A stretch of DNA of 61,523 nt, filler included. It is 12 parts of 12 records of this genome, joined end to end, with 100 filler letters (N's around TTAATTAATTAA, not from the genome) between each part and the next. Parts side by side here need not be neighbours in the genome. Positions count along the whole stretch, not along the records: positions 7,274 to 13,985 come from SRR7504441_3230; 11 more parts are not named here. One strand, 5' to 3'. The notes under the pieces are model-generated. The model was not told the DNA's origin. It made no database searches and saw nothing but the letters and a program-made list of their open reading frames with translations. The first letter of the stretch is position 1; the number at the start of each line of letters is the position of its first letter. Both the position numbers and the translations under genes were made by a program. Positions 3,603 through 55,292 of this stretch are shown here, in pieces.

Positions 3603-3702
3603 NNNNNNNNNNNNNNNNNNNNNNNNNNNNNNNNNNNNNNNNNNNNTTAATTAATTAANNNNNNNNNNNNNNNNNNNNNNNNNNNNNNNNNNNNNNNNNN
3701 NN
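3603..3702. other. Artificial contig spacer (N44-TTAATTAATTAA-N44)
   Basis: 100-nt N run with an all-frame stop cassette; the same spacer recurs 11 times. Confidence 0.98.
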
Positions 3703-7173: not shown

Positions 7174-7273
7174 NNNNNNNNNNNNNNNNNNNNNNNNNNN
7201 NNNNNNNNNNNNNNNNNTTAATTAATTAANNNNNNNNNNNNNNNNNNNNNNNNNNNNNNNNNNNNNNNNNNNN
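7174..7273. other. Artificial contig spacer
   Basis: N44-TTAATTAATTAA-N44. Confidence 0.98.
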
Positions 7274-10200
7274 TGTGGTGTTCCATCAGAACAGAGTGAG
7301 CAGGTGAAGCCGGTCGAGCCTGCTCTGAGCTGGGACAGCCAATTCTCGAGCGAGCTTGACCGTACGCCGTTCACGTGGAACATGTGCGGCTGCTCCACAG
7401 GCGAGGACGAGTGCCCAGCAGAGGAGCAGTTCTGCAGCCAGCTCACGGCCAGCTGGACCGACGACTATACCCCCAGCCTGTTTGGCAGCAGCTTCTCCGG
7501 CACCGGCGGGATATGGGTGCCGCTTGTTGGCCGGCGCGCCACCTGAGCCGTCGGTGTCAGCCGGGCGGGTACCCTGTTGATGGCTACTACGCAATGATAC
7601 CACATCTGGCCTCTCGGGTCTTTCAATACACTGCTGTGTGATGCCGTGACCCTCTGGCCTGTCAGGGCACATGCAATGACGTGGTGCGCTCGATCTTTAA
7701 TGAGGACAGCCCATGGATTGTGCAGAAGGACAGGCAAACGCTCGAAGTGGACATGATGGTAGTGCTGAGCCACAAGGTCTGGCTGTGCACCGCTGCGCTG
7801 ACAGTGCTGAGCATACAGGGATTCGACGAGCGAGAGAATGTAACCCCTTTCAGAGTGTATTTCGAGTTTGCTAGGACCGGGGGCGTGTTGCCTGGGTACT
7901 GAACACTGGCTGCTTTGGTTGAGAGAAAGGACAGATACACATATGGCCACTACGTGTCCACTAATCTTGTGGTTCTGATCCTGGTCTATTTGATCTTCCT
8001 CGGATTTCTCTACAACTCGCTCCGTAGAGCTCAAAAGGCAGGCCAGCATCACTGCTGTCAATGACTTTTGAGTGCAGGAGAAGGCTGTGTTCTTCAGCGA
8101 TGTTTGGAACTATGTCGACATGATCAACTACATCATGTTCATTGTCAGCATTGTCTACTACATCCTGTGACCCTGCACATCTGCCCAGCCCCAAACAGCG
8201 ATTTTCAGGTTTCGTGTGTGTGGAGACAACCTCACAAAAGTCAACACACAGTGTCCAACCAGTGTGCTGAATGAAGATTACTTTGCTGATCCTCTTGGCG
8301 ACGACCAGTACAAGAAGATCAACTTATTCTTTGCACTGCTGGATGCGTCGGACATCTATGCCACGGTCTTTGGGATCAATTGCATGTGAATTGTTCCAGC
8401 TGAGCTGCAAAGTGAGTGTGCATGCTGCAGCTTCATGTCAATCAAGATGCTTCGATACTTTTACTTCATTCCATTCCTCACGCTTGGAATCTACACGCTG
8501 GTAGATTGTTGCCGGCTTGTCTTTGCATTTGTGATATTGGTGGGCATCTATCACACCAGTTTCTCGATCATGATCTATGTCATGTTCTATGACAAAGCCT
8601 ATGTTTTCTCGACATTTGGCCGGACTTATGCTCAGCTTCTGTTCATTGTGCTCAAGTCTATAGAGGCGTGGTCTCCCATCAATGATCTCAAAGAGCCCTA
8701 CCGCTCGATCGGCCTGGTCATGATTGGTACGTGATCGGCTTTAGACCCATACTTACCATGTGTGATAGGAATTTACGTGTTCTTCATGATCTATATCATG
8801 CTCAACATCTTTATTGCCATGGTGTTGATCTCCTATGCGAGAGTCCGGCCAAACTTCAGGAACGACTTTGTAGATAATGTGATCCTAATGTGGCGTGACT
8901 TCAGAGACAAGGTGTGGATGCCCCTGAGCGTGCGTTTGTTGAGTCAAGTTGATGGATCAGGTGCATACCTGTGGCGAGTTTGGCATGTACATGCGCGGTG
9001 TGATCCTTAAGAACGATTCAAACTTCTACTTTTTGGAGTACGATCGCAAGAAGGCAGGGGAGGACGATGTAGGGGCTGACAGTGGCAAGGCGGACATTCT
9101 GTCCGAAACCATCTCCATGCAGCGCAACCCACTTGGAAAGGAGGAAGAGGAGCCTTTGACCCCCAGGGCCGATGTGAAAACGCAACCATCAGCCACCACC
9201 AGTGATGAGGTTAAATTTGAGCATGGGGCAGCTGATCTGATCGATCAAAATCGAGGGCTACTCTCGTTGATGGAATCTGAGCTGCTCAAGCGTGATCAGG
9301 ATCTTCAGCTGAATCAGGCCCGAATAGAAAATACACTAGCCCACACACAACACTTCATGGATGCGGTTGGGATGCAGTTTACGACACTGGAACGGTCAAC
9401 ACTGACAGCTAGCCAAATCCTTGCCAAGATGCCCTCTACGCATCGAGAGATCGCGGATTGCTCCAAGCGCATCATTGCTAGTCTGATGTTACTGCAGGGT
9501 GGTGACCCCGGAGGTATAGTGCATGGTAGAAATGCGACCTCGAGAGGAGCTCCAAGGGGCAGAACGGATTCTCAAGCCAATCCCCTGTTCCGAGGAATGG
9601 ACCCAAACATTGCAGGTATTCGCTTGACCCACAGACCCTGGTGTTGAGCCGTCTGCTGTTTGTTCAGATGATGATACCACCGTGACCGAGCATCCCAACC
9701 TGCGGACCCAGTCCAGCAATGGGCTCTCCAACTTCCTCAACTCCGACACGGCTGATCGCCCAAGGCAGAGGAGGAGGCCAGCTACTGCCTATGACCCTGG
9801 TCCTGTACCTGCACCACTCTACGCCGACATTATAGAGGATACTGAAATGAGCGATCTGAGCCAGTCTTCAATGCGCAGCTCGAACGCTAAGACAGACATC
9901 AGCCGCTGGCTTCGCGATCGCTCTGAACATGGTGCTGCGGCTGCTCTTGTTCAGGTGCCAGCCGAGGCTGGTTCGAGCAGCAGGAGAATGCCTGGCAAGA
10001 AGAAGAAGCATCGAGACAGAGCCGGTACAAACCAGGACGCAGCACGCAGAGTCAATCCCGTCAATGCCGGCGAGCGGCCAATGGATGGCGAAACTGCCTC
10101 GGAAATCACTGAAACTCAGAGCTCTGCCCCAAGAGCAAAGTCCAAGAGAAGAGTTTCGCGACCCAACCCAGCCCGCAGAGCGGAGCCTGCGAGCCCAGAT

Positions 10201-10473
10201 CATGACAGCACGGTTGGTGCTGTGCCTAGAGATCCGCCGGCGAGGCAGTCCAGGACTTCCAGCCCGAGTAGACGAGCCTCCCCCCAGGATTCGAGTGAGC
10301 TCTGGCAAGGGAACGAGATTGAGGTTGTTGACATGGCACCCGGTGTAGAACCCAAACTCTCCAAAAGGAAGACCAGACGCAAGTCTAGATCTTCGCGTGA
10401 AGAGCCTAGCTATAGCAGACAAATGAGCAACGACGACGGTCGGGTCGATGAGAGCCAAATATTGCGCCTGTGA
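7274..10473 (+). CDS. Polycystin-2 (PKD2/TRPP)-like channel, 5'-partial, multi-intron
   Basis: Spliced exons give FEFARTGGV, FFSDVWNYVDMINY, SIKMLRYF, FSTFGRTY and YIMLNIFIAMVLISY (TRPP S6-like), then a coiled coil and a long disordered tail. Stop at 10473. Confidence 0.75.
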
Positions 10474-10740
10474 TGATTAAACAGTTAACTGCCTCACATC
10501 GATCATCGGATCATTCATGACAACAAAATTAAATGCGTTCCTACCCGGTAGTACGAGTATAGTGTAACTACAGTGTAACTAGGTAGCAGCTAGGTAGCTC
10601 AAACATACTCAAACACGAAAATCCCAGGTAGATCTACCAGGTAGTTACGTACCAGGCAGTATGTGCCGAGGGGCAGGACTTTGCACTCGCAGCAGGACTC
10701 CTCCTGTATTCACACCGAATTCGGTTGCGTGTGCTGAGCA

Positions 10741-11325
10741 CTACAAGTCGTTGCGTCTGACTGCCACTGCGGCCGCCACGCGCTTTCCGAGTGCTTGGCC
10801 CGCCGCTATGAACGGAGGAGCCAACGCCGAACCGTTGAAGGGAGGTGTGCCAGTCACGGCGACCGCTCCGTAGGAATCGTACCCGGATCGCGTGGGTGCG
10901 GGCGTGATGCACTGGATCCGGAAGGAGGCCAGCGAGCGCTGCAGCGCCGCCACCACGTGCTCCAGTCCCTGGGCTAGCCCACCGCCAGTGGCAAACGCGG
11001 CTCCGAGCTTGCCTTCCAGCCGACCGTCCTCCCAGAACGGCTCCCAGGCAGTCTCGAACCAGGCCTGCATCTGGGAGGACGGGTTGCCGTAGTGCACCGG
11101 CGAGCCGACCACCACAGCGTCCGCCCACTCGAGCACGTCAGCCTCCACACGCACCTGCCCGATCGGCAGCAACCGGACGACCGCGCCGGCCTGCTCAGCC
11201 CCGCGGGCGATCGCGCCGGCCAGCTGCTCGGTCTTGTTGGTGCGCGAATGGTACGACACCAGCACGTTGCCCGCGTCCGCGCAGCCAGCCAGCAGCACGG
11301 CCAGCAGCAGGACTCTCGTCGGCAT
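10741..11325 (-). CDS. wrbA: WrbA-like flavodoxin / NAD(P)H:quinone oxidoreductase with signal peptide, intronless
   Basis: Motifs YHSRTNKTEQLA (FMN loop), ADAVVVGSPVHYGN, GKLGAAFATGGG, YGAVA and ALGKRVA. Confidence 0.8.
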   Translation of the reverse strand: MPTRVLLLAVLLAGCADAGNVLVSYHSRTNKTEQLAGAIARGAEQAGAVVRLLPIGQVRVEADVLEWADAVVVGSPVHYGNPSSQMQAWFETAWEPFWEDGRLEGKLGAAFATGGGLAQGLEHVVAALQRSLASFRIQCITPAPTRSGYDSYGAVAVTGTPPFNGSALAPPFIAAGQALGKRVAAAVAVRRNDL

Positions 11326-11414
11326 GTCTCACCAACCTTTTTTTTTTTCGCGAAAAGGAAGGTCTCATCAGCAAGTGCTGGGGTGCAGAGGACCCCGGGC
11401 GAGGCAGAGAGGCG

Positions 11415-13196
11415 ATGGTGTGCAAGACCAGCCCGGCCTCGATCAGCAGTAGCGGGGTGGTGCTGGGTGTGGCCCTGGCGGTGGGGATCGCGCTGGCCGT
11501 TGTCCCGCAGCACATCAAGCTGTGCCGGTGCCGGTCGATCGTTGGTCTCAGCATGCGCACGCTGTTGCTCCAGCAATGCCAGCAATACTCCAACCTACTC
11601 AACGACCTGATCATCCGCTGGCCGGTGCTCCGCCGCTGCGGGCTCCGGGCTGCCTGGTGCGCGCCCGACGAATTTATCAGCGTGGCCCAGCTGTTCGGCC
11701 AGTGGGCAGTGGTGGCCCCGCTGCTCCTGTACTACATCTGGCTCCATCCGGACCGCAAGCCCATCTCGCCGGCGCTCCAACCGCTCCAGCCCGCTCCTGA
11801 GCTGGCAGAAGCCCCTGGAATGAGCTATCCGGCCGCCTGCCGCGCGGCGCTCGCCTTTTGCGCCTACGCCGTGCTGGCGGGCCTGGCGGCCGGGCTGCTG
11901 CTGCGTTACGACGGCGAGTGCGGGCGGGGCACGCAGCTGTTTGCGGACGGGCTCGGGTACCTGTGCCCGGCGCTGGTGCTGGTGCAGTTCACGCCGCAGC
12001 TGGTGCTCACATACAGGACGGGCCGGGCGGGCGGACTGAGCGTGCTGATGCTCGCGCTGCAGGCCCCGGGCTCGGTGCTCTTTGCGGCGGTTCAGATCGT
12101 CCAGGGCAACGCAGTGTCTACATGGCTGGCCACGGCTGTGGCTGCAGTCCAGCTCTCTGCGATACTCTGCTTGCTGCTCTGGTTTGAGTGGCGCGAACGC
12201 CGGACCAGCCAGGTGTACTACTGCGCTTACGGGTGCCATCTGGACCGGGCGGCTCTAGCTGCCTGCGTGGGCCGGGTGCACGGCAGGCCGCAGCTGGTTA
12301 GGTTTGACGGGGTGGACAACAGTCTGATGTTCCTGGGCTTTAGGTCGGACGACGGGCAGCCCGGCCTGCAGCGGTCGGCTGTGCACCAAGGCGATCCGTC
12401 TGCTCAGGCACTCTGCTGGACGATCGATCAGTCGGCTGTTGATGCGCTCGACCGGTTTCACGGCCAGCGCGAACGGCACAGCTGGGAGCTGCGGGCAGGC
12501 GAGCAGGCCGACCCGATCAGCGCGCTGCTCTATCTGCCTAGCCAGGCCACCGAACAGCCTGAGCTGCTCCCGTCAGCAGAAGATATGGACCTGCTGCGCC
12601 GAGCGGCTAGCGAACATTTGGAGAGCCACTACGCAGGATGGTTGGCACGTCACCCTGACAGCGAATCGGGCCCAAGAGAGCATGCTGCGCTGTATGAGCC
12701 AGCTGACTCGCTGAGTGCGCATGCAGTCTTTGTGTATGGCTCCTTGAGGCCAGATGACGAGTCGCGAATGCCTTGGACTGTTGAATTTGTTGCAGACACC
12801 CAAACGGCGGCTGCCTATGTGACAGGGGCCCGGCTGTGTCGTGCCAATGGCTATGCATGCGTGTTGCTCTCTCCAGCGGCCCAGGATGGGGATTCTAGAA
12901 GCCCCTCCAGGGTCCAGGGCTTTCTTGTTAGTTGCAGCAGTCACGAACAGTTTGCAGACAAGCTTGCCTGTGCTAATGAGATCGAGGGGTACAAAGCGGA
13001 TGGAACAGGCTTATACGATCGAAGTGTGGTGATCGCACATCGAATAGAAGATGGGGCCCAGATTCAGGCCTACATTTACCATCGTCACATGCATGGTGAC
13101 TTGAAAATCGAAGAAGAGATTCCAAGTGGAGATTGGGTGGCTCATAATCGCACGAAGAGCTTAGATCGTGGTTTAGATGACATAAAACAACCATAA
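11415..13196 (+). CDS. PQ-loop transporter fused to two gamma-glutamylcyclotransferase-fold domains, intronless
   Basis: 593-aa ORF. Two PQ motifs (VVPQHIKL, FTPQLVLTYR..GGLS) lie in ~7 TM helices, followed by YCAYGCHLD (GGCT-like) and VFVYGSLR...EIEGY...LYDR...AYIY...IPSGDW (GGACT/AIG2-like). Confidence 0.8.
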   Translation: MVCKTSPASISSSGVVLGVALAVGIALAVVPQHIKLCRCRSIVGLSMRTLLLQQCQQYSNLLNDLIIRWPVLRRCGLRAAWCAPDEFISVAQLFGQWAVVAPLLLYYIWLHPDRKPISPALQPLQPAPELAEAPGMSYPAACRAALAFCAYAVLAGLAAGLLLRYDGECGRGTQLFADGLGYLCPALVLVQFTPQLVLTYRTGRAGGLSVLMLALQAPGSVLFAAVQIVQGNAVSTWLATAVAAVQLSAILCLLLWFEWRERRTSQVYYCAYGCHLDRAALAACVGRVHGRPQLVRFDGVDNSLMFLGFRSDDGQPGLQRSAVHQGDPSAQALCWTIDQSAVDALDRFHGQRERHSWELRAGEQADPISALLYLPSQATEQPELLPSAEDMDLLRRAASEHLESHYAGWLARHPDSESGPREHAALYEPADSLSAHAVFVYGSLRPDDESRMPWTVEFVADTQTAAAYVTGARLCRANGYACVLLSPAAQDGDSRSPSRVQGFLVSCSSHEQFADKLACANEIEGYKADGTGLYDRSVVIAHRIEDGAQIQAYIYHRHMHGDLKIEEEIPSGDWVAHNRTKSLDRGLDDIKQP

Positions 13197-13357
13197 AACA
13201 ACCGAAATAGAGACAGCTGCTCTATTACATCAAATAATTACTGCCAGTGTGCCTGAGAGGGCCTCTCCTCCAATCCTGGTGCAACGTGAGCACGAACACG
13301 CGGATCAAACGGCAGAGAACGGTGCCTCTGCGGCACCCGAGCAAACGATCCACACAC

Positions 13358-13627
13358 ATGTTCGTCACGGTCGCATCGGTTCTTCTGGCAGCGGCAGTCG
13401 CCGCGCCCACCCTCACCGACCCTGCACAGCCGCATCTCGCTCAAGCTTGGCAGGCCGAGTCCACCGGCGACGGCCTGCCGGGCCAGACCGGCCTCGAGTC
13501 GTACCTGTATCAACCCGGCAAAGAGAACGATGGCACCATGCGCGCCCACAAGTGGGACTATGGTGCGGACAACTGCATCAAGTATGAGATCGATTCCCGA
13601 ATCATCATGACATTGTACACTAATTAG
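13358..13627 (+). pseudogene. Truncated secreted protein (N-terminal fragment only)
   Basis: Signal peptide MFVTVASVLLAAAVAA, then GC3-rich coding sequence that switches abruptly to AT-rich non-coding-like DNA after ...CIKYEIDS. Confidence 0.45.
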
Positions 13628-13985
13628 CACGTGGCAATTATGTCCATAGTAGCTGCGGAGCAATGACGGAGATAGACAAGTAAATCGCATTGTATGTATA
13701 TTTGATATCTAACTTGTTAACCTCCAATTGCGTCTAGTGAACATTAAGTGAACATTGTCGTACGTACGAGTACTCGTAATAATTATGAGGGACGGTACCG
13801 GTCGTGTACAGTCGACGTGTACATGTTATGTACATGTACGGGTAACGGGGCTTCGGGCAGTTCTAGGCAGTTCGGCGCCGGACGGTATAGGCCGGCGGTC
13901 AGGCTTGGGCGAGGGCGAGCCTCATAGGTTTTTTTTCCGTTGCGCCATGTATTAATTGTGATCTGGGAGTCAGACATGAGGTGAT

Positions 13986-14085
13986 NNNNNNNNNNNNNNN
14001 NNNNNNNNNNNNNNNNNNNNNNNNNNNNNTTAATTAATTAANNNNNNNNNNNNNNNNNNNNNNNNNNNNNNNNNNNNNNNNNNNN
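13986..14085. other. Artificial contig spacer
   Basis: N44-TTAATTAATTAA-N44. Confidence 0.98.
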
Positions 14086-14201
14086 TTCAGTTTTGTAAGA
14101 TGTGTTTTGTAAGATAGTAAGATGTGGTGACTATCCTCACCCGCGTGCTGACCTCAGTACTGTAGCACTTGCGTCTCAGCCCCGGCCCAAACTTGGCAAA
14201 A

Positions 14202-15798
14202 ATGCCCCGAGTGATGAGGGCGGTGCGAGGCGGCGCCGCAGCTGCCCAGCGGGGGCGTCAGCTGGCGCGGGGGATCGGGCTGATCGGACCGGCGGACGAC
14301 GTGCTGGCCTCGCTGCTCGGCTGGCTGCGTGTGGGCGGGCTCCGGCTGGCCGAGCGGGTCTGCCGCCGGTGGCGCGAGGTGATTGCCGGATACAAGCTCT
14401 GGCCGGCGCTGATCGCCAGGACCCCGGGCCTGCCCCCGGAAGTGGGCTCCAAGCAGCAGCTCCGCGATCACTTTCTGGCCCGCAGGTCGGCTGGGGCCGC
14501 CGGGTTCGCCAGCAAGATGATCAAAGCGGGGCACGTCGGGATGGCCCGCAAGCGCCCGCAGCCTCGGCTGGCCCGGCTGGCCCAGCTCGCCAAAGCGCTC
14601 GATCTTACCTGCATCGGCCTGGAGTGGGGCGCCTCGGACGGACCGGTGGCCGGCCAGGATCTGCCGGCCGCCGCTCTGGCGGTTGGGCGCGCCGCGCTGC
14701 ACGTGTGGCTGCCACCGCCGCTGAGGGCCGCTCTCGGACCCGACTCGCACCTCTGGCTGGTGCTCCGCTCGCGAGCAGTCGGAGGCTCGGCTCGGATCTG
14801 CGTCGGCGCGCCCCCGTGGCGGCAGCTTGAGGCCAAGGCGGTGTGCCTGCAGCAGGGCTCGTCTGGCGGCGCCAGCACCGTGGCTGTGGGAGTGGACGCG
14901 CAGTCCGTTTCGAGCCTGACGGTGCATGGCACGGCCGGCCAGCCGAGAGGGCAGGGCAGATTGGTGTCGGGATTCCGGAGCTGATTGAGGCGTTTGCACC
15001 AAAGTTGGTCGCACAGCAACTCCCTCCAGACCTGGAGCTGGATGGCCGGTCGCGAGGGCTGCACGGGTATGCGGCGCTGGTCGAGCTGCGGCTGGCCGGA
15101 TGCAAGCAGGTGGCTGCCCGTGATGCCGTCTGATGAGCCGTGTGGCAGCCGGGAGTTCGGCAGCCTAGCTCGCTGTGGTGGGAGCTGTTCAGTGGCCTGA
15201 GTTGGGACCCAAAGGCCTCCAGCAGGGCTGCGGCTGTGATCCCGCTCGTGCGAGGCCAGGACATGTGCCCGCCACTGAGCACCGACGGTGTGCCTGGGCT
15301 CGCGTGGCAGACTGAAGCGTTCTCGGGGTATGGCAAGCCCGCTCAGGAGGTGAGTGTGTGGCAGGTGTGCAGCGGGACTGGTCTGTATGGATGTCGCACT
15401 GCTCGATGAGGCTTCGGGAGTGGTGCTGTGGCAGGCGTCCCAGGTGACTTCGAGAGGCGCCGGCGAGCTAACGGTGCGGGCTAGGTCTGCTCTCTGAACG
15501 GCACCGTCGGTGGGCTGGGATGGAGCACCGATTATGAGCTTGAAGGCGAGGCACTCGAACCGCGACAGCTCACTCTAGAGGGTGACGGGGTGCAGCTCCA
15601 GTGTGTTATCGGTCAGTTTCAGTGTGATGGTCAGAAGAAACCAGCTTGAGCGGCTGTGTGATGTTTGCAGGGCTACCGCGAGGAAAGGGTGGGGGCAGCA
15701 CTTGCAGACTCTTTACGTCATCAATCATTGTCACGACACCGACCATCAAAGACTGGTTTGGGCTCATCCCCGAAGACATCCGAGCGTTGCCCTGCTGA
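14202..15798 (+). CDS. F-box protein, FBXO15-like, ~5 introns
   Basis: F-box PADDVLASLLGWL...AERVCRRWREVIAGYKLW. The spliced C-terminus GLHGYAALVEL, LAWQTEAFSG|CAAGLVCMDVALLDE and IKDWFG resembles FBXO15. Stop TGA at 15796-15798. Confidence 0.65.
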
Positions 15799-16089
15799 CT
15801 CGTTGTGTTTTGTCATTTCATCACGCATATGCGACTAAAATGCAACACCGTCAAACTTGTACCGTACTACGTACTAAGTCTTGAATGACATTGTGTATAG
15901 TAATATTATAGTAAAAAATTCGATTATTGTAAGAATTGAGAGCACATGTTTGAACACTTGCTTGTATTGCTCAATACGTATTCAGCGTCAGTCACATCCT
16001 TTTCACTATGCGAGTATAATCAGATTTATTTTAATTAAAAGACTTGGAGCCCTTGAACTAGTTACCTCTCTTGAAAGCTGATCAAATCA

Positions 16090-17838: not shown

Positions 17839-17938
17839 NNNNNNNNNNNNNNNNNNNNNNNNNNNNNNNNNNNNNNNNNNNNTTAATTAATTAANNNNNN
17901 NNNNNNNNNNNNNNNNNNNNNNNNNNNNNNNNNNNNNN
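17839..17938. other. Artificial contig spacer
   Basis: N44-TTAATTAATTAA-N44. Confidence 0.98.
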
Positions 17939-21145: not shown

Positions 21146-21245
21146 NNNNNNNNNNNNNNNNNNNNNNNNNNNNNNNNNNNNNNNNNNNNTTAATTAATTA
21201 ANNNNNNNNNNNNNNNNNNNNNNNNNNNNNNNNNNNNNNNNNNNN
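21146..21245. other. Artificial contig spacer
   Basis: N44-TTAATTAATTAA-N44. Confidence 0.98.
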
Positions 21246-22269: not shown

Positions 22270-25200
22270 CTACATACTCGTAGTGTTGACCTTGACTCCT
22301 TGGCTCGTTGACCTCTTCCGTAATCCTAGGCTCTCTGAATTTCTTTTTTGGATATTCAATTGTTTTTGGATATTCAATTGCTTAACATGCTCACCGAATT
22401 TCTTCAGGTCCCCTCTTTCAGGACAGCGTGACGATTGCAAACCTTGACGAAACAATGCATCAAGGTTATCCAGTCTAGAAGCAAGCTCTTGCTTATGTGC
22501 ATGCTCTGGATTGGTGCCAGTTGCCTCCTGCTTTTCGATCAAATGCTCGAGGGCGAATGCTTCATCATATGCCTCATAGAACGCCAGAGCTCCCACGACG
22601 TTCTTGAGGATGTGGGCCTGTTCTCTATCTGGATTGGTTCTCATGCGCTCCATCGCATCGTCGAAGTTCGGAATTACCGTGCTCGTCAGAAATCGACTCC
22701 AATCCTGTTTCGGATGGCCAACTTGGCTACTCTGACGTTTGGGCTTGGGCGTGCTGCAGTCGGCTTCAAGACTCTCGCGGTCCTCGCTTGCGACTGATAT
22801 TGCTCTATACACCTCTGCTAACAGTATTGGGAGTGCATCTGGCAGAATTGGTTTGTTGCAGCACGCGTCGGCTCCAGAAACAAAATACTCAGCAGCAGCA
22901 TGGTCCATATCATCACCAGACATGAGAACCATTGGTTGGTGTGGCTTTTTAGTTTGCAACAATCCTTCCCACTGGCGCACAGCTGAAATGAGCCCGTTGC
23001 CATCCATTCCATCACCAAGGTGCAGATCGCAAAGTATTACCGAGAATATTCGACCCTCCTCCTCGTACAATTGCTGTATCTGGTCTAAGGCGCTTAGAGC
23101 ACTCTCTGAAGTCCTCACCGTGTATCCCCACTGCTCATACGAGCTGCACATCGTATGGCGCAGCATCTCGCAGTCCTCCACAATCAGAACATGCAGCTTT
23201 GGCGTACAGGCAGCTTGCTTGGTAGAGAGTCTTGAATCTTCATCCTGCTGTTCAACTGACTCAACCGGTCGGAAGGGAACTTCAAAATAAAACTCAGCAC
23301 CGCCAAGGAGAGCGCTGTCGCTGTAGCCACACCTGCCACCCAGGGCAGCACTGCACACACGAACCAGTCAACACATGGTGGTATCTATGAGCAGGCGCAC
23401 CTGTAGGCGGCCACACTCCATAGGCCCAAGCCGCTATTGTTGCCTTCATCCTTGTGGTACTGATGCGGCTGGAAGAGCCTCTCATAGAAAGCTGGCGGGA
23501 CCCCAGGGCCATCATCGTGAACTTTCACCGCGAGCTGCTGTTCCGCGACAGCTATCACAATGCGAATAGTCGTTGAGGCGTGTTTGATCGCATTCGAAAC
23601 CAGGTTACACAGCATACAAGTCAGCATCGTGGCGTCTGTATCAAATAGTGGCACTGCAGGGAGGTCACAGTGGACCAACACGCCGGCAGCGACAACACTG
23701 CTGGTTGTCATTTGCTTGACCTCGTTTATCAGGTCACCTATGGCGCATGGCTTGAGCCGTGGCTGAAGGACCTCCCCCCACTCGAGTCTGGATTCGGCGA
23801 TGAGCATATCTCGAAGCCTGAAGAGCACGCGCAGAGCCACCACCATACTCTCATGATTGTTCGCTTGTAAACCGTGAGAAAGCGTTGCGAGCGGCGTACC
23901 AAAGTCATGCACGAGTCGTGCCACTGAGTTGTGATGTCGGTCGTGGATTTGTTGAGCTTGCCTCCACGCGAGTCGCCCCTGGGGAAGCGCAGAGCCGGAC
24001 TGGTCAGGCCCGCCGCTGCTCTGGGGGGCTGAGCATCGCAGCAAACGCAGCTCATGCTCAAAGAGCTGAGCTATGACATCATCGGACGGAGCGGGCTTTT
24101 GCCAGAAATAATCAGCGCCAGATTCCATGAATAAAGGCTCAACCTCAGCATTGCCTGACCAGCCAATCACGAGACCGTTAAAGCCTACTTCCTGTCGCAG
24201 CTTTAGCACTGCCTCAGAGCCAAGCAGCTGGCCTCCTGCGTCTTGCATGTACTGGTCTATGATTATTGCGTGGATTTTGGGCTGACCATTCATTGCAACT
24301 TCGAGGCACTCTTCGGCCGTAGAGGCTTCAATATACTCAAAAGTAGAATCCCATTGGCTTGCCAGTTCACGCAGATGCCTGATCTGCGTGGAGCGGAGAC
24401 ACTGCACATCGTCCACTACCATGACAATCAGCGGTGCTCCTTCCTCAAGCCCTTGCATAGCCTGCCGCTGCTCCCGGACCGCCTTCACTGGCTTACAGGG
24501 CTGCTCCAAATCAGGCGCGTCCGGTTTGGGCTGGTTGCTCTCGCTGCCACTACCACTCTCGTCGAATTGGTTTCTCAAGGAGTCCAAAATCTCCAAGATC
24601 ACCGCCATGCATGCGCGGAGTGAGGTGATTCTTTCTTTGTGGTGGGGAGCTTTGAAATTCTGGTCTGCTTCCATTAGCCGCAGCTCCAGATCAAACGCCG
24701 CGAGTGGAGAGTGGAGTTTGTGCCTGCAGTGATGCATAATCTCCTCACGCATGTCACGCCGAGCTTGCGCCCGTGTCAGTGCCAGGTTCTGTAAGATCGT
24801 CCCCTTGACAGAAACGACAACGCCAGTTAGCATTGCCAGACACAATGTCAGCCAGAAATAATACGGGGACTCGTTGGTGACACCCACCACTGCTGTAGAA
24901 CACAACATCATACTAAGTGGAACTGCAGGGCGTTGATAGAGCGTAATGCATAACATGGGGCAGAGCGCAATAGGCACTGGATAGGAGAGTACTGGATAGG
25001 AGAGTCCATGTCTCACCAGCACTCTCACGATCGGTACAAGCACAAAGTATACCATATGCATCGCCCAGTCGAAATGCTCGAACGTTAAATTGATCGAAGC
25101 CATCATACAAAGTGTAGCAAAGCAGGCGCACACAAGAGTCCACTGCCCTATTGACCAGTGAAATGCCAAGGCTCCCAAACATGATCCAGTCACCAGGCAA

Positions 25201-26214
25201 GCGAAGGCTTCACACTTACGCTGGCCGATGCTGGAGACGTCCTGCTGCTCATCCTCCAGCTCTCCCTCGTGCTCGGATTGGCCAGGTGAGGGAAGGGTCC
25301 TTTGGCAGGTAAGGTCAACCATTTCCTTTTGGCAGTGACATGCCAGCGCACAGACGAACGCCGCAACACTGGCTAGGTAGCGCGCTGTTTCGCTGTTCTG
25401 GACTATCCACTGGTGGATCGACGGGCAGATGGCGTCGATGTTGAGAGCCAGCCCGAGTACAACTCCCGCCACCCACTTGAGCATGATCAGTCTGCTCACG
25501 GCCGCATGAAAGCGCGGGGATGTCATGGTGACCTTGACCCAACTCACGGCACAGCACAGCACAACCAGAGGCACGAAGGTCCGGTGCAGCTCCGGATAAA
25601 CTACGTAGAGCGTCGCGATGGTCGGGAGGCCTATGCACAGCTGCCGCGAGAGCTTCGAGTAGAAGGCGCAGGCGGCAGAATTGATGATGCAAAAAGCAAT
25701 GCCGCAGAGCCGCTGGTGCTCCAGTTGGATCTCGTCGGGCGATATCGCCGGGAAAACGGTCTCGGGGAAGCGCCAACTCAGAAGAATCTGTCCGTGCCAG
25801 CTGGCCGCAGCCCGGGCTTTGGCTCACCGTTGCAGGAAGTAGTACGAATACCAGACCGAGCAGGACGCGGTCAAACAGCCGGTGACTGGGCTGCGATGTC
25901 CCGAAGAATATCCAGGCCGTTGTCGGGACCACCACGCCCAGGCTGCCCATCAGCGCGTGCTTCGCAATCCCGACCGGTAGCGCTGCTATCATCACGCCTT
26001 GGAGCCAGCGAGCCGCCTCGGTCTCCCGCCGCTCGCGGGTGCGCTTGTCCATCTGCGCCTGCGGAGTGAACAGCCGGTCAACTTGATCTGTCCCGCCAGC
26101 TGGCGCATCCCGGGCCCAGGGCCCACCGGCTCGGAAGAGGCAGGCCAGTGCGGCAGCAAACCCTGCGGCTGAAACGAGACACCGGAGCGGCAAAGACTCC
26201 TCGAGCATGATCAT
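22270..26214 (-). CDS. Multi-TM hybrid histidine kinase (HisKA-REC-HisKA-HATPase-REC-HPt-like)
   Basis: Three ORFs join through GT-AG introns. Motifs: HKLHSPL; VVDD..IIIDQYM..WQKP; VHDFGTPL; NLVSNAIKH, DDGPGV, SGLGL; IVED..ILCDLHL..CNKP; AHILKNVVGAL. Confidence 0.8.
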
Positions 26215-27798: not shown

Positions 27799-27898
27799 NN
27801 NNNNNNNNNNNNNNNNNNNNNNNNNNNNNNNNNNNNNNNNNNTTAATTAATTAANNNNNNNNNNNNNNNNNNNNNNNNNNNNNNNNNNNNNNNNNNNN
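27799..27898. other. Artificial contig spacer
   Basis: N44-TTAATTAATTAA-N44. Confidence 0.98.
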
Positions 27899-32036: not shown

Positions 32037-32136
32037 NNNNNNNNNNNNNNNNNNNNNNNNNNNNNNNNNNNNNNNNNNNNTTAATTAATTAANNNNNNNN
32101 NNNNNNNNNNNNNNNNNNNNNNNNNNNNNNNNNNNN
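32037..32136. other. Artificial contig spacer
   Basis: N44-TTAATTAATTAA-N44. Confidence 0.98.
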
Positions 32137-48607: not shown

Positions 48608-48707
48608 NNNNNNNNNNNNNNNNNNNNNNNNNNNNNNNNNNNNNNNNNNNNTTAATTAATTAANNNNNNNNNNNNNNNNNNNNNNNNNNNNNNNNNNNNN
48701 NNNNNNN
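48608..48707. other. Artificial contig spacer
   Basis: N44-TTAATTAATTAA-N44. Confidence 0.98.
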
Positions 48708-55192: not shown

Positions 55193-55292
55193 NNNNNNNN
55201 NNNNNNNNNNNNNNNNNNNNNNNNNNNNNNNNNNNNTTAATTAATTAANNNNNNNNNNNNNNNNNNNNNNNNNNNNNNNNNNNNNNNNNNNN
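55193..55292. other. Artificial contig spacer
   Basis: N44-TTAATTAATTAA-N44. Confidence 0.98.

What the first reader, a model, noticed from the sequence alone, without database searches (positions are those of the whole stretch)
11415..13196. PQ-loop (lysosomal-type) transporter fused to tandem gamma-glutamylcyclotransferase domains, one apparently inactive
Seen: an intronless 593-aa ORF with a two-PQ-motif membrane domain directly followed by a GGCT-like domain and a GGACT/AIG2-like domain. In the first, the usual LDxxEG reads LDRFHG (~12447-12464, catalytic Glu replaced by His). The second keeps EIEGY (~12978). Known: PQ-loop proteins (cystinosin, PQLC2) export amino acids from lysosomes; GGCT/GGACT cleave gamma-glutamyl amino acids or amines to 5-oxoproline. 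Inference: a transport-coupled enzyme salvaging gamma-glutamyl isopeptides from food vacuoles (cross-linked prey protein, glutathione or peptidoglycan-derived fragments), with the inactive domain binding or sensing substrate.
Basis: partly seen in the sequence, partly recalled or inferred. Interest (0 to 1): 0.7.

Follow-up and report, generated by a model that had tools for sequence, protein, structure and literature searches.

The report
Membrane transporter fused to gamma-glutamyl-cleaving enzyme domains
One gene of an uncultured marine microbial eukaryote joins a seven-helix PQ-loop membrane transporter directly to two gamma-glutamyl cyclotransferase-type domains, the first apparently dead and the second intact, a combination not found elsewhere that hints at what this uncharacterised transporter group carries.

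Summary
Window 11415-13196 (+) is an uninterrupted 593-codon ORF. Residues 1-267 are a 7-helix PQ-loop transporter. Residues 268-430 (D1) are a GGCT (C7orf24)-type domain. Residues 431-593 (D2) are a GGACT/YtfP-type domain. D1 has lost the family's catalytic Glu (LDRFHG, His349), reads YGC instead of YGS, and lacks 5 residues of a conserved strand. D2 keeps YGSL and the Glu (E524) and folds with pLDDT above 90.

The closest relatives (44-58% identity, environmental contigs of 1-2 kb) carry the transporter and the tandem D1-D2 module as separate proteins. Their alignments abut at Val267 with no linker. Among the 150 best of 714 HMMER hits in 1.84 billion representatives, plus 5 cluster members, 0 of 155 combine PQ-loop with either domain.

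The junction could not be checked with reads. The window is a chain of short contigs joined by artificial spacers; the ORF lies inside one 6.7-kb contig.

Best reading: a real, lineage-specific fusion that places a gamma-glutamyl(amine) cyclotransferase at the cytosolic exit of a transporter, with D1 as a non-catalytic adaptor. The lysosome or food-vacuole location and the substrate remain untested. I rate it a new variant of known kinds, of moderate interest.

The parts
11415..13196 (+). Whole fused ORF, 593 codons plus TAA stop
   Evidence: colinear with separate homologues at both ends
11415..12215 (+). PQ-loop transporter domain, residues 1-267, seven predicted helices (12-39, 47-82, 84-109, 138-165, 171-202, 210-230, 233-263)
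   Evidence: Pfam PQ-loop E 5.4e-16. AlphaFold2 pLDDT is about 90 for TM1-TM5, 62-74 over residues 201-260 (TM6-TM7) and under 50 for loop 121-130. Foldseek matches cystinosin 8dke, 7zk1, 8dyp, SWEET and the KDEL receptor. Profile A4 matches cystinosin 7zk1, profile positions 15-261 to chain 15-248, whole-sequence E 1.2e-3 (no single stretch passes at E 0.01). 51% identity to P0154 and 58% to P0003.
11505..11510 (+). PQ motif 1 (Pro31-Gln32) in helix 1
   Evidence: PQ motifs lie on TM1 and TM5 in the family (PMC9385667 passages)
11994..11999 (+). PQ motif 2 (Pro194-Gln195) in helix 5; both residues invariant in alignment A4
12192..12218 (+). Fusion junction: RERRTSQ after helix 7, Val267, then the first strand of D1. 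The two homology blocks abut at Val267 with no linker.
   Evidence: blastp: query 2-267 aligns to P0154 1-299 of 311; query 267-575 aligns to P0002 64-368 of 381
12216..12704 (+). D1: GGCT (C7orf24)-type domain with its C-terminal helical tail, residues 268-430; degenerate
   Evidence: E 5e-30 to D1 of P0002; family profile hits human GGCT at 1.4e-8; Pfam AIG2_2 only 0.097; pLDDT 35-68; 39% identity to P0002 against 58% for D2
12228..12236 (+). D1 Tyr272-Gly273-Cys274, where P0002, P0056 and P0150 have YGS
12363..12368 (+). Site of a 5-residue deletion in D1 (between Gly317 and Leu318), where relatives have the G[VYF]AT[LI]Q strand that aligns with GIATIF of human GGCT
12459..12461 (+). D1 His349 (codon CAC) in LDRFHG, at the position of the catalytic Glu
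   Evidence: Relatives have LDDLEG, LDKFEG and LDGYEG. The profile column aligns with the Glu of LDEQEGV in human GGCT, which is Gln in 3cry and Ala in 2rbh. hhalign places it opposite E524 of D2 (weak).
12705..13193 (+). D2: GGACT/YtfP-type cyclotransferase domain, residues 431-593
   Evidence: Pfam GGACT E 4.4e-13; pLDDT above 90; VIA Z 14.4 to the YkqA N-domain, 13.4 to PH0828, 12.3 to human GGACT 3jub; profile hits 1vkb at 1.2e-6 and 1xhs at 1.8e-5
12735..12746 (+). D2 Tyr441-Gly442-Ser443-Leu444 (YGSL motif)
   Evidence: the YGSL motif defines the superfamily pocket (PMC12569754 passages)
12984..12986 (+). D2 Glu524 in NEIEGY, aligned with the Glu of DDFEDC in mouse GGACT; invariant in alignment A2
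   Evidence: Glu82 of human GGACT is the proposed catalytic residue (PMC12569754 passages)
11326..11414 (.). 89-bp divergent intergenic region shared with a WrbA-like gene on the minus strand; contains a T11 run
7274..13985 (.). The single gap-free contig (6712 bp) that holds the ORF, bounded by artificial N44-TTAATTAATTAA-N44 spacers

Best explanation
This is a real, lineage-specific gene fusion. I infer that two genes which are separate in the nearest relatives, a 7-TM PQ-loop transporter and a soluble tandem GGCT-type plus GGACT/YtfP-type protein, were joined by loss of the transporter's short C-terminal tail and of the enzyme's roughly 63-residue leader.

Seven-helix PQ-loop proteins have a luminal or external N-terminus, so the enzyme module should sit on the cytosolic face, pinned to the membrane only 4-8 residues after helix 7. 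D2 keeps the YGSL pocket and the catalytic Glu. It is the working enzyme: it cyclises the gamma-glutamyl part of a gamma-glutamyl-amine or gamma-glutamyl-amino acid to 5-oxoproline and frees the amine. D1 has lost Ser, the Glu and part of a core strand. It is a pseudoenzyme that serves as a rigid adaptor, or pseudo-dimer partner, holding D2 at the transporter's cytosolic mouth.

The whole would be a transport-and-cleave device. The compound that the transporter delivers to the cytosol, or its gamma-glutamyl conjugate, is processed at once.

Shown here: the ORF, the three domains, the motif states, the exact junction, and the absence of the fusion among examined relatives. Inferred: the deletion that joined the two genes, cytosolic orientation, D2 activity, D1 inactivity, functional coupling, substrate class and membrane location.
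For: - The ORF and its domains.
- The homology blocks of the separate relatives abut at Val267 and cover residues 2-575.
- GC3 is continuous across the junction (0.78, 0.82, 0.74 in 150-nt windows). A 5'-to-3' GC3 decline occurs in 8 of 12 long ORFs of the window, so the gradient inside this ORF is not a sign of chimerism.
- The ORF lies inside one gap-free contig, 1.8 kb from the nearest spacer.
- D2: Pfam GGACT, YGSL and an invariant Glu aligned to the GGACT Glu, pLDDT above 90, Z 12-14 to YkqA, PH0828 and GGACT.
- D1 degeneration. Identity to P0002 is lower than for D2 (39% against 58%).
- D1 decay recurs elsewhere. In the A1 alignment P0039 reads YGA and LDRIYC at these motifs, although no significant D1 match to P0039 was found. 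P0155 keeps only a stub.
- The two subfamilies also occur together in reverse order in B. subtilis YkqA 2qik, and P0127 has a possible GGCT-like start after its D2 (sequence inspection only; not detected). This fits a paired unit.
- A catalytically dead GGCT fold reused as a non-enzymatic module has a precedent in Paulinella crTPpart2 (PMC12569754 passages).
- Topology: 7 helices with PQ motifs on helices 1 and 5, as in cystinosin, whose N-terminus is luminal (PMC9385667 passages). Cys75 is invariant in alignment A4, and Cys82 and Cys169 are shared with the closest relatives P0003, P0004 and P0154; all three fall in the predicted luminal loops.
- Short contigs at 99% identity or more from marine metagenome and RNA libraries cover parts of all three regions.
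Against: - It is a singleton. No second organism with the fusion was found (0 of 155; 0 of 49 metagenome loci; only P0002).
- No read or contig spans the junction, so the assembly of 12150-12250 is unverified. The source assembly is fragmentary, with contigs of 3.3-6.7 kb chained by spacers.
- D1 could not be folded with confidence and gave no structural match (Z at most 3).
- D1 decay is also what a decaying, functionless appendage would show.
- No activity, localisation or transcript-structure data exist.
- GGACT-family members have diverse and partly unknown substrates; YtfP and YkqA are uncharacterised.
- The positive-inside count is weak: 10 Lys+Arg on predicted cytosolic loops against 7 on luminal ones.
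Confidence: 0.5

Rival explanations
1. Assembly artefact. The contig joins or collapses two neighbouring or unrelated genes, and no fused protein exists in the organism.
For: The window is a chain of short contigs from a fragmentary assembly. Public runs hold only small shares of the stretch, at most 0.15 of its words, and none covers 11651-12473. The fusion is unique. GC3 falls from 0.88 to 0.50 along the ORF.
Against: A chance join would have to be in frame, lose exactly the tail and the leader, and leave no foreign residue at Val267. GC3 does not change at the junction; the drop begins about 130 codons later, inside the ancestral D1-D2 unit, and such gradients are common in the window (8 of 12 ORFs). 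No repeat that could mislead an assembler was found (Tandem Repeats Finder found none in 9000-16000; no paralogue in the window).
Confidence: 0.12
2. The ORF is real but the fusion is an evolutionary accident. A deletion tethered the enzyme to the transporter without functional coupling. D1 is decaying and the module may be on its way to loss, or it acts on cytosolic substrates unrelated to transport.
For: Singleton distribution. D1 has lost three conserved features and diverged more than D2. D2-type domains are appended to several unrelated proteins (P0042, P0067, P0108, P0130), so this domain is promiscuous.
Against: The PQ domain and D2 remain well conserved (51-58% and 58% identity to the nearest relatives) with all key motifs. 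The 593-codon frame is intact. Of the four differences seen in one low-depth environmental contig (depth 3.3-3.4), one is synonymous and one turns TAA into TGA, keeping the stop.
Confidence: 0.2
3. Regulatory module. The GGCT-fold domains bind a gamma-glutamyl compound or 5-oxoproline and gate or tune the transporter, or recruit partners, rather than turning over transported substrate.
For: D1's pocket-forming N-terminal strand starts 4-8 residues after helix 7, next to the cytosolic gate, which in this family is operated by the PQ motifs (PMC9385667 passages). Dead GGCT folds serve binding or targeting roles in Paulinella (PMC12569754 passages). PQLC2 is described as recruiting a signalling complex under starvation (abstract of PMC8364130 in the listing).
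Against: D2 keeps the full catalytic signature, which a pure sensor would not need. No docking evidence exists: the complex prediction never ran, and the single-chain models gave no inter-domain confidence.
Confidence: 0.13
4. D1 is not dead. His349 replaces Glu as the general base, so both domains are active, perhaps on different substrates.
For: His can act as a general base in principle (general chemistry, inference). D1 keeps Tyr-Gly of the pocket and its overall colinearity.
Against: The aligned Glu was the residue that crystallographers changed in human GGCT (Gln in 3cry, Ala in 2rbh). I recall those mutants as inactive; this was not read here. D1 also lacks 5 residues of the strand aligned with GIATIF and has Cys for Ser. 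Model confidence is low.
Confidence: 0.08

Closest known systems
Cystinosin (SLC66A4) and other eukaryotic 7-TM PQ-loop transporters (PQLC2/LAAT-1/Ypq, SWEET, KDEL receptor fold)
   Same: Two PQ-loop repeats above the Pfam threshold. Seven helices with PQ motifs on helices 1 and 5. Structural and profile matches to cystinosin 7zk1, 8dke and 8dyp and to SemiSWEETs.
   Different: Only remote similarity (E about 1e-3). Gln216 stands where cystinosin has Asp305. TIGR00951 is far below its cutoff. The protein belongs to an uncharacterised subfamily with a conserved luminal Cys (Cys75) and a QAPGS motif, found in Amoebozoa, Rhodelphis, fungi and marine protists. It carries a 326-residue enzyme module in place of a short tail.
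Human gamma-glutamylcyclotransferase GGCT / C7orf24 (2pn7, 2i5t)
   Same: The D1 family profile aligns over chain residues 14-162 of 188, including the YGSN motif, the GIATIF strand, LDxxEG and the C-terminal helices.
   Different: In this protein D1 reads YGCH, lacks 5 residues of the strand and has His for the catalytic Glu. Pfam AIG2_2 is below threshold.
Gamma-glutamylamine cyclotransferase GGACT (3jub, 1vkb) and E. coli YtfP (1xhs)
   Same: D2 matches Pfam GGACT. YGSL and the Glu align. The predicted fold matches with Z 12.3-12.4 to GGACT and 9.4 to YtfP. The C-terminal SGDW motif is shared with YtfP and YkqA.
   Different: 15-20% identity only. D2 belongs to a protist subfamily with the signature FVYGSLRPDDxSGxPWT whose substrate is unknown.
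Bacillus subtilis YkqA (2qik), two cyclotransferase domains in one chain
   Same: Pairs a YtfP/GGACT-type with a GGCT-type domain. It is the best structural match of D2 (Z 14.4, rmsd 2.1 over 114 residues), and D1's profile matches its second domain (E 2.4e-5).
   Different: The domain order is reversed (GGACT-type first in YkqA). YkqA is soluble and bacterial, and its own function is unknown.
Soluble tandem proteins of marine protists (P0002, P0056, P0039) and the stand-alone PQ-loop proteins P0003, P0004 and P0154
   Same: Direct homologues of the two halves (44-58% identity), with the same D1-D2 order.
   Different: They are separate polypeptides. P0002 and P0056 keep YGS and the Glu in D1. 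P0002 has a 63-residue leader, and P0154 has a 12-residue tail beyond the aligned part.
Paulinella chromatophore transit peptide part 2 (9i09, 9i08)
   Same: A GGCT-fold domain without the catalytic Glu, reused for a non-enzymatic role. It is matched by the D2 profile (E 2.1e-3) and the model (Z 11.6, but rmsd 9.1).
   Different: It is a targeting signal on imported proteins and is not joined to a transporter.

Membership tests
PQ-loop family (Pfam PF04193; eukaryotic 7-TM type) | Two PQ-loop repeats scoring above Pfam's gathering threshold | tested here: met
   58.5 bits against 22, 2 stretches
PQ-loop family (Pfam PF04193; eukaryotic 7-TM type) | Seven transmembrane helices with PQ motifs on TM1 and TM5 | tested here: met
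   AlphaFold2 gives 7 helices; PQ at residues 31-32 (helix 12-39) and 194-195 (helix 171-202). The definition comes from PMC9385667 passages.
PQ-loop family (Pfam PF04193; eukaryotic 7-TM type) | Fold like solved members | tested here: met
   Foldseek probability 1.00 to cystinosin 8dke, 8dkw, 7zk1 and 8dyp, also SWEET 5cth. TM-scores are modest (TMt 0.38-0.55) and rmsd is 8-10 A.
Cystinosin (SLC66A4) orthologue | NCBIfam TIGR00951 lysosomal cystine transporter above its cutoff | tested here: not met
   15.9 bits against 192.35
Cystinosin (SLC66A4) orthologue | Asp equivalent to human Asp305 (protonation and ligand release) | tested here: not met
   The profile alignment puts the Q of QAPGS (Gln216) opposite the D of LLDFTGG. 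The role of Asp305 comes from PMC9385667 passages. The alignment is weak (E 6e-3).
PQLC2 / LAAT-1 / Ypq cationic amino-acid exporters | Closer similarity to PQLC2-type than to other PQ-loop subfamilies | not tested
   No PQLC2-type reference sequence was available from any tool. No PQLC2 chain appeared in the PDB searches.
GGCT (C7orf24-type) for D1 | Sequence homology to the family | tested here: met
   Met via relatives only: D1 to P0002 E 5e-30; family profile to 2pn7 E 1.4e-8. D1's own Pfam AIG2_2 hit is below threshold.
GGCT (C7orf24-type) for D1 | YGS(N/L) pocket motif | tested here: not met
   Reads YGCH; Tyr-Gly are kept and Ser is replaced by Cys
GGCT (C7orf24-type) for D1 | Catalytic Glu (the position mutated in 3cry and 2rbh) | tested here: not met
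   His349, codon CAC
GGCT (C7orf24-type) for D1 | Predicted GGCT fold | tested here: inconclusive
   pLDDT 35-68 in two models; no match above Z 3 for model residues 1-165
GGACT / AIG2-like (Pfam PF06094) for D2 | Pfam model above the gathering threshold | tested here: met
   50.3 bits against 22.8
GGACT / AIG2-like (Pfam PF06094) for D2 | YGSL motif and the Glu equivalent to Glu82 of human GGACT | tested here: met
   YGSL at residues 441-444. E524 is invariant in A2 and aligned with the Glu of FED in 1vkb and 2kl2. The motif definition comes from PMC12569754 passages.
GGACT / AIG2-like (Pfam PF06094) for D2 | Fold | tested here: met
   pLDDT above 90; Z 12.2-12.4, rmsd 2.7-3.1 over 125-129 residues to 3jub, 3juc, 3jud and 1vkb
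GGACT / AIG2-like (Pfam PF06094) for D2 | Cleavage of gamma-glutamylamines to 5-oxoproline | not testable with these tools
   Needs an enzyme assay
YkqA-type tandem cyclotransferase | One GGACT/YtfP-type and one GGCT-type domain in one chain | tested here: met
   Both domain types are present, but in the opposite order to 2qik

The most novel reading that the evidence does not exclude
The fusion acts as a Rosetta stone. It would show that this widespread, uncharacterised PQ-loop subfamily (Amoebozoa, fungi, Rhodelphis, marine protists) moves gamma-glutamyl compounds, or the amines released from them. It would also show that in this organism transport and cleavage are physically coupled, with the dead GGCT domain receiving substrate at the cytosolic gate and handing it to the live domain. 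That would be a one-polypeptide version of the transport role long proposed for the gamma-glutamyl cycle (Orlowski and Meister's hypothesis, recalled and not read here).
Probability: 0.2. Interest if true: 0.75.

Novelty: new variant of a known kind. Interest (0 to 1): 0.5.

Why it matters
All three domains belong to known families, so the parts are ordinary. The new element is the architecture: a secondary transporter of the PQ-loop/SLC66 type covalently joined, without a linker, to cyclotransferase domains.

If the fusion is real and functional, it gives a testable substrate hypothesis for an orphan PQ-loop subfamily that occurs in many eukaryotes. It would also be a natural example of an enzyme held at a transporter's exit, and it adds a further case of a catalytically dead GGCT fold kept as a structural part.

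Its weight is limited because it is a single ORF from a fragmentary environmental assembly, with no read support across the junction.

Tried and rejected
- **Read check of the junction.** The look-up of sequencing runs listed 24 runs; 20 hold part of the stretch and none holds half of its words (best share 0.15). Laying X1, X2, X5 and X6 gave 7 short contig pieces (11372-11650, 12474-12624, 12848-13230). None lies on 11651-12473, so the junction is neither supported nor contradicted. Two of these runs are RNA libraries. The tool warns that this does not show transcription.
- **Word-index protein searches.** These were nearly blind, probably because low-complexity words fill the candidate list. 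The whole protein found none, region 266-593 found only P0002, and PQ profile A4 found only 2 already-known proteins.
- **ESM Atlas.** No usable hit for the whole protein. The PQ part gave generic PQ-loop clusters with scores of at most 0.88.
- **PDB by single sequence.** No hit.
- **Metagenome contig scan with A1.** 49 loci were returned. tblastn with the PQ part and with D1 found 0 of 49; D2 gave 49 hit lines. The PQ profile gave one hit (L028, E 0.006) that lies out of frame inside an unrelated 462-aa ORF, so I take it as chance. The D1 profile gave 4 weak hits (L049, L031, L003, L038, E 1.9e-5 to 4.4e-3), all in the ORF that holds the D2 match; I did not follow them further.
- **Complex prediction (PQ alignment A4 with soluble alignment A1).** I handed it in 15 times.
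- **Sirtuin idea.** The idea that D2-type domains are fused to sirtuin-like domains (P0042, P0108, P0130) is not supported. Only a weak TPP_enzyme_M hit appeared (E 0.0075, below cutoff).
- **Two-organism chimera suggested by the GC3 drop.** I rejected this because the drop is not at the junction and similar gradients occur in 8 of 12 ORFs.
- **Recent internal duplication as the origin of the tandem.** I rejected this because D1 and D2 show no pairwise similarity and only a weak profile match around the catalytic position (hhalign E 7.6e-4, probability 25%).
- **Paper searches.** 'PQ loop' + GGACT gave 0. PQ-loop + AIG2 gave 0. PQ-loop + gamma-glutamylcyclotransferase gave 1, a plant sulfate-starvation study in which a PQ-loop gene (At5g40670) and GGCT2;1 are both induced, with no fusion (passages read). 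GGACT + lysosom gave 2 irrelevant listings. The gamma-glutamyl cycle search gave nothing usable.
Full report
**What is there.** Window 11415-13196 (+) is an open frame of 593 codons with an ATG start and a TAA stop. Pfam finds two PQ-loop repeats (E 5.4e-16, 58.5 bits against a cutoff of 22) and a GGACT/AIG2-like domain at residues 438-575 (E 4.4e-13, 50.3 bits against 22.8). The stretch between them reaches only AIG2_2 at E 0.097, below threshold. Other ORFs of the window encode a papain-family protease, BK-channel domains, EF-hands and a TIR domain, so the source is a eukaryote. No whole genome is held for it.

**The window is not one piece of DNA.** Eleven blocks of 44 N, TTAATTAATTAA, 44 N divide it into 12 segments. 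I recognise this as the usual six-frame-stop spacer for chaining contigs; that reading is recalled, not tested. The ORF lies in a gap-free 6712-bp segment, 7274-13985, so only that segment is true context. It holds a WrbA-like flavodoxin-fold gene on the minus strand (10741-11325), diverging from the ORF across 89 bp.

**Relatives.** An exhaustive HMMER scan of 1.84 billion representatives gave 714 hits at E up to 1e-3, 144 at up to 1e-10 and 4 at up to 1e-30; the best 150 were listed.
- The best hit is P0002 (381 aa). It matches only residues 266-576.
- P0003 (242 aa), P0004 (289 aa) and the cluster member P0154 (311 aa) match only the transporter part.
- I scored all 155 fetched proteins (150 hits plus 5 cluster members) against the three parts. 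128 matched the PQ part only, 22 D2 only, 4 D1 plus D2, 1 D1 only, and 0 matched PQ together with D1 or D2.
- The six listed hits of 600 aa or more that I scanned with Pfam (P0006, P0016, P0024, P0063, P0067, P0109) carry other or no extra domains.

A fused relative would add up the scores of both halves and should therefore rank high. Its absence among the best 150 is meaningful, though it does not prove that none exists. A scan of metagenome contigs returned 49 loci with D2-type domains, none of them with a PQ-loop next to it.

**The junction.** blastp aligns query residues 2-267 with residues 1-299 of P0154 (311 aa), and query residues 267-575 with residues 64-368 of P0002 (381 aa). The two blocks meet at Val267. 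The transporter's 12-residue tail and the enzyme's 63-residue leader are missing, and nothing foreign is inserted. D1's first strand starts 4-8 residues after helix 7, depending on where the helix is taken to end. GC3 in 150-nt windows is 0.78, 0.82 and 0.74 across the junction, and it falls only from about residue 400 onward. A 5'-to-3' fall of GC3 is seen in 8 of 12 long ORFs of the window. The composition therefore gives no sign of a chimera at the join. I could not test the join with reads: public runs hold at most 0.15 of the stretch's words, and the seven contig pieces laid leave 11651-12473 uncovered.

**The transporter.** AlphaFold2 on a 42-row alignment gives seven helices. pLDDT is about 90 for TM1-TM5, 62-74 for residues 201-260 (TM6-TM7), and under 50 in the loop 121-130. 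The PQ motifs sit on helices 1 and 5, as described for the family (PMC9385667, passages). Foldseek matches cystinosin, SWEET and the KDEL receptor. A profile of the subfamily matches Arabidopsis cystinosin over nearly its whole length at E 1.2e-3.

It is not a cystinosin. TIGR00951 scores 15.9 bits against a cutoff of 192. Gln216, in the conserved QAPGS, aligns with cystinosin's Asp305, the residue that the paper links to protonation and ligand release. Named relatives are uncharacterised PQ-loop proteins of Amoebozoa (Pelomyxa, Mastigella, Tieghemostelium, Ceratiomyxa and others), Rhodelphis and a zoopagomycete fungus. The substrate cannot be read from the sequence. Cystinosin's N-terminus is luminal, so a seven-helix protein of this fold should have a cytosolic C-terminus. 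Cys75, invariant in the subfamily alignment, and Cys82 and Cys169, shared with the closest relatives, fall in the predicted luminal loops. The charge bias is weak, 10 Lys+Arg against 7.

**D1 (residues 268-430).** Its own Pfam score is sub-threshold. It is nevertheless clearly homologous to the first domain of P0002 (E 5e-30) and of P0150 (E 7e-18). A profile of these domains matches human GGCT 2pn7 at E 1.4e-8 over chain residues 14-162, including YGSN, GIATIF, LDEQEGV and the C-terminal helices. It also matches the second domain of B. subtilis YkqA. The Glu of LDEQEGV is the residue changed to Gln in 3cry and to Ala in 2rbh, as the printed alignments show.

- Where P0002, P0056 and P0150 have YGS, this protein has YGC.
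- Where they have G[VYF]AT[LI]Q, it lacks five residues.
- Where they have LDxxEG, it has LDRFHG.
- A weak profile-profile alignment puts His349 opposite E524 of D2.
- Identity to P0002 is 39% in D1 against 58% in D2.
- D1 did not fold with confidence (pLDDT 35-68) and gave no structural match. The GGCT fold of D1 therefore rests on sequence homology only.
- In the A1 alignment P0039 reads YGA and LDRIYC at these motifs, although no significant D1 match to P0039 was found, and P0155 keeps only a stub of D1. Decay of the first domain thus seems to recur in this family.

**D2 (residues 431-593).** It has YGSL at residues 441-444 and an invariant Glu524. Its family profile matches mouse and human GGACT, E. 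coli YtfP and plant AIG2-like proteins, and the Glu aligns with that of GGACT. Glu82 of GGACT and the YGSL motif are taken as the catalytic centre of the superfamily (PMC12569754, passages). The model is confident (pLDDT above 90). It aligns with the YkqA N-domain (Z 14.4), PH0828 (Z 13.4) and GGACT (Z 12.2-12.4). D2 belongs to a protist subfamily with the signature FVYGSLRPDDxSGxPWT, found for example in a pelagophyte and a cercozoan. This domain type also occurs alone or appended to other proteins.

**How it most likely works.** I infer the following; none of it is shown.
1. The module is cytosolic and held at the membrane.
2. D2 is the live enzyme. It cyclises a gamma-glutamyl group to 5-oxoproline and releases an amine or amino acid.
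3. D1 is a pseudoenzyme that positions D2, or pairs with it as the two domain types do in YkqA.
4. The fusion links the transporter's cargo with gamma-glutamyl cleavage.

Lysosome or food-vacuole location and gamma-Glu-Lys as the substrate are plausible but have no support here. The plant study in which a vacuolar PQ-loop gene and GGCT2;1 are both induced by sulfur starvation is only a loose parallel (PMC13349389, passages).

**Rivals.** The rivals are an assembly artefact, a real but functionless tethering with D1 in decay, a sensor or gate role, and an active D1 that uses His. The report sections give the evidence for each. The first is the most important to exclude, and it needs reads or PCR from the source.

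**Verdict.** This is a new domain architecture built from known families, seen once, in a fragmentary environmental assembly. Interest is moderate (0.5). It would rise if the junction is verified and orthologous fusions or coupled activity are found.

Noticed in passing
window 3603-3702, 7174-7273, 13986-14085, 17839-17938, 21146-21245, 27799-27898, 32037-32136, 37733-37832, 43569-43668, 48608-48707, 55193-55292: Eleven identical 100-bp blocks (44 N, TTAATTAATTAA, 44 N) split the window into 12 segments of about 3.3-6.7 kb. They look like artificial six-frame-stop spacers joining separate contigs, so gene order across them is not real.
   Followed up: partly
window 10741-11325 (-): A WrbA-like NAD(P)H:quinone oxidoreductase / flavodoxin-fold gene diverges from the fused ORF across 89 bp. 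Its N-terminus is hydrophobic and contains LLAGC, which resembles a bacterial lipoprotein signal by eye.
   Followed up: partly
window, 12 long ORFs: GC3 falls from the first to the last third in 8 of 12 long ORFs, most steeply in the fused ORF (0.88 to 0.50). GC peaks lie at the gene 5' ends in the 7274-13985 contig.
   Followed up: partly
P0024 (850 aa) and P0109 (914 aa), hits: Other PQ-loop proteins of this subfamily are fused to soluble enzymes: P0024 to an L-PSP/RidA domain (2 stretches) and P0109 to a nucleoside diphosphate kinase. Enzyme fusions to this transporter type may recur.
   Followed up: no
P0150 (240 aa), hit: A stand-alone D1-type GGCT domain with intact YGS and LDGYEG ends in a hydrophobic stretch of about 20 residues near its C-terminus. 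This suggests a tail-anchored, membrane-bound cyclotransferase.
   Followed up: no
window 11372 and 11546: In run X1, a contig identical over 11372-11493 continues upstream with 32 letters unlike the window. In RNA-library run X6, one low-depth contig lacks 2 bases at 11546 inside the ORF, while DNA run X2 does not. These could be strain differences or errors.
   Followed up: no
window 37781-41830 (-): The ORF listed as 1349 aa runs into the spacer at 37789-37832. Its real sequence (37833-41830, about 1330 aa) has no Pfam match and reads as a long charged, Ala/Lys/Glu/Gln-rich, probably coiled-coil protein cut off by the contig end.
   Followed up: no
D2 profile A2 and model m484034bb1df9: The D2 family profile and model match Paulinella chromatophore transit peptide part 2 (9i09: E 2.1e-3; Z 11.6 but rmsd 9.1), a catalytically dead GGCT fold.
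   Followed up: partly
window 32442-35111 (+) and 23385-25574 (-): These ORFs encode a TIR-domain protein with an armadillo-like region and a protein with a histidine-kinase-type ATPase domain. Both lie on other contigs of the chain.
   Followed up: no
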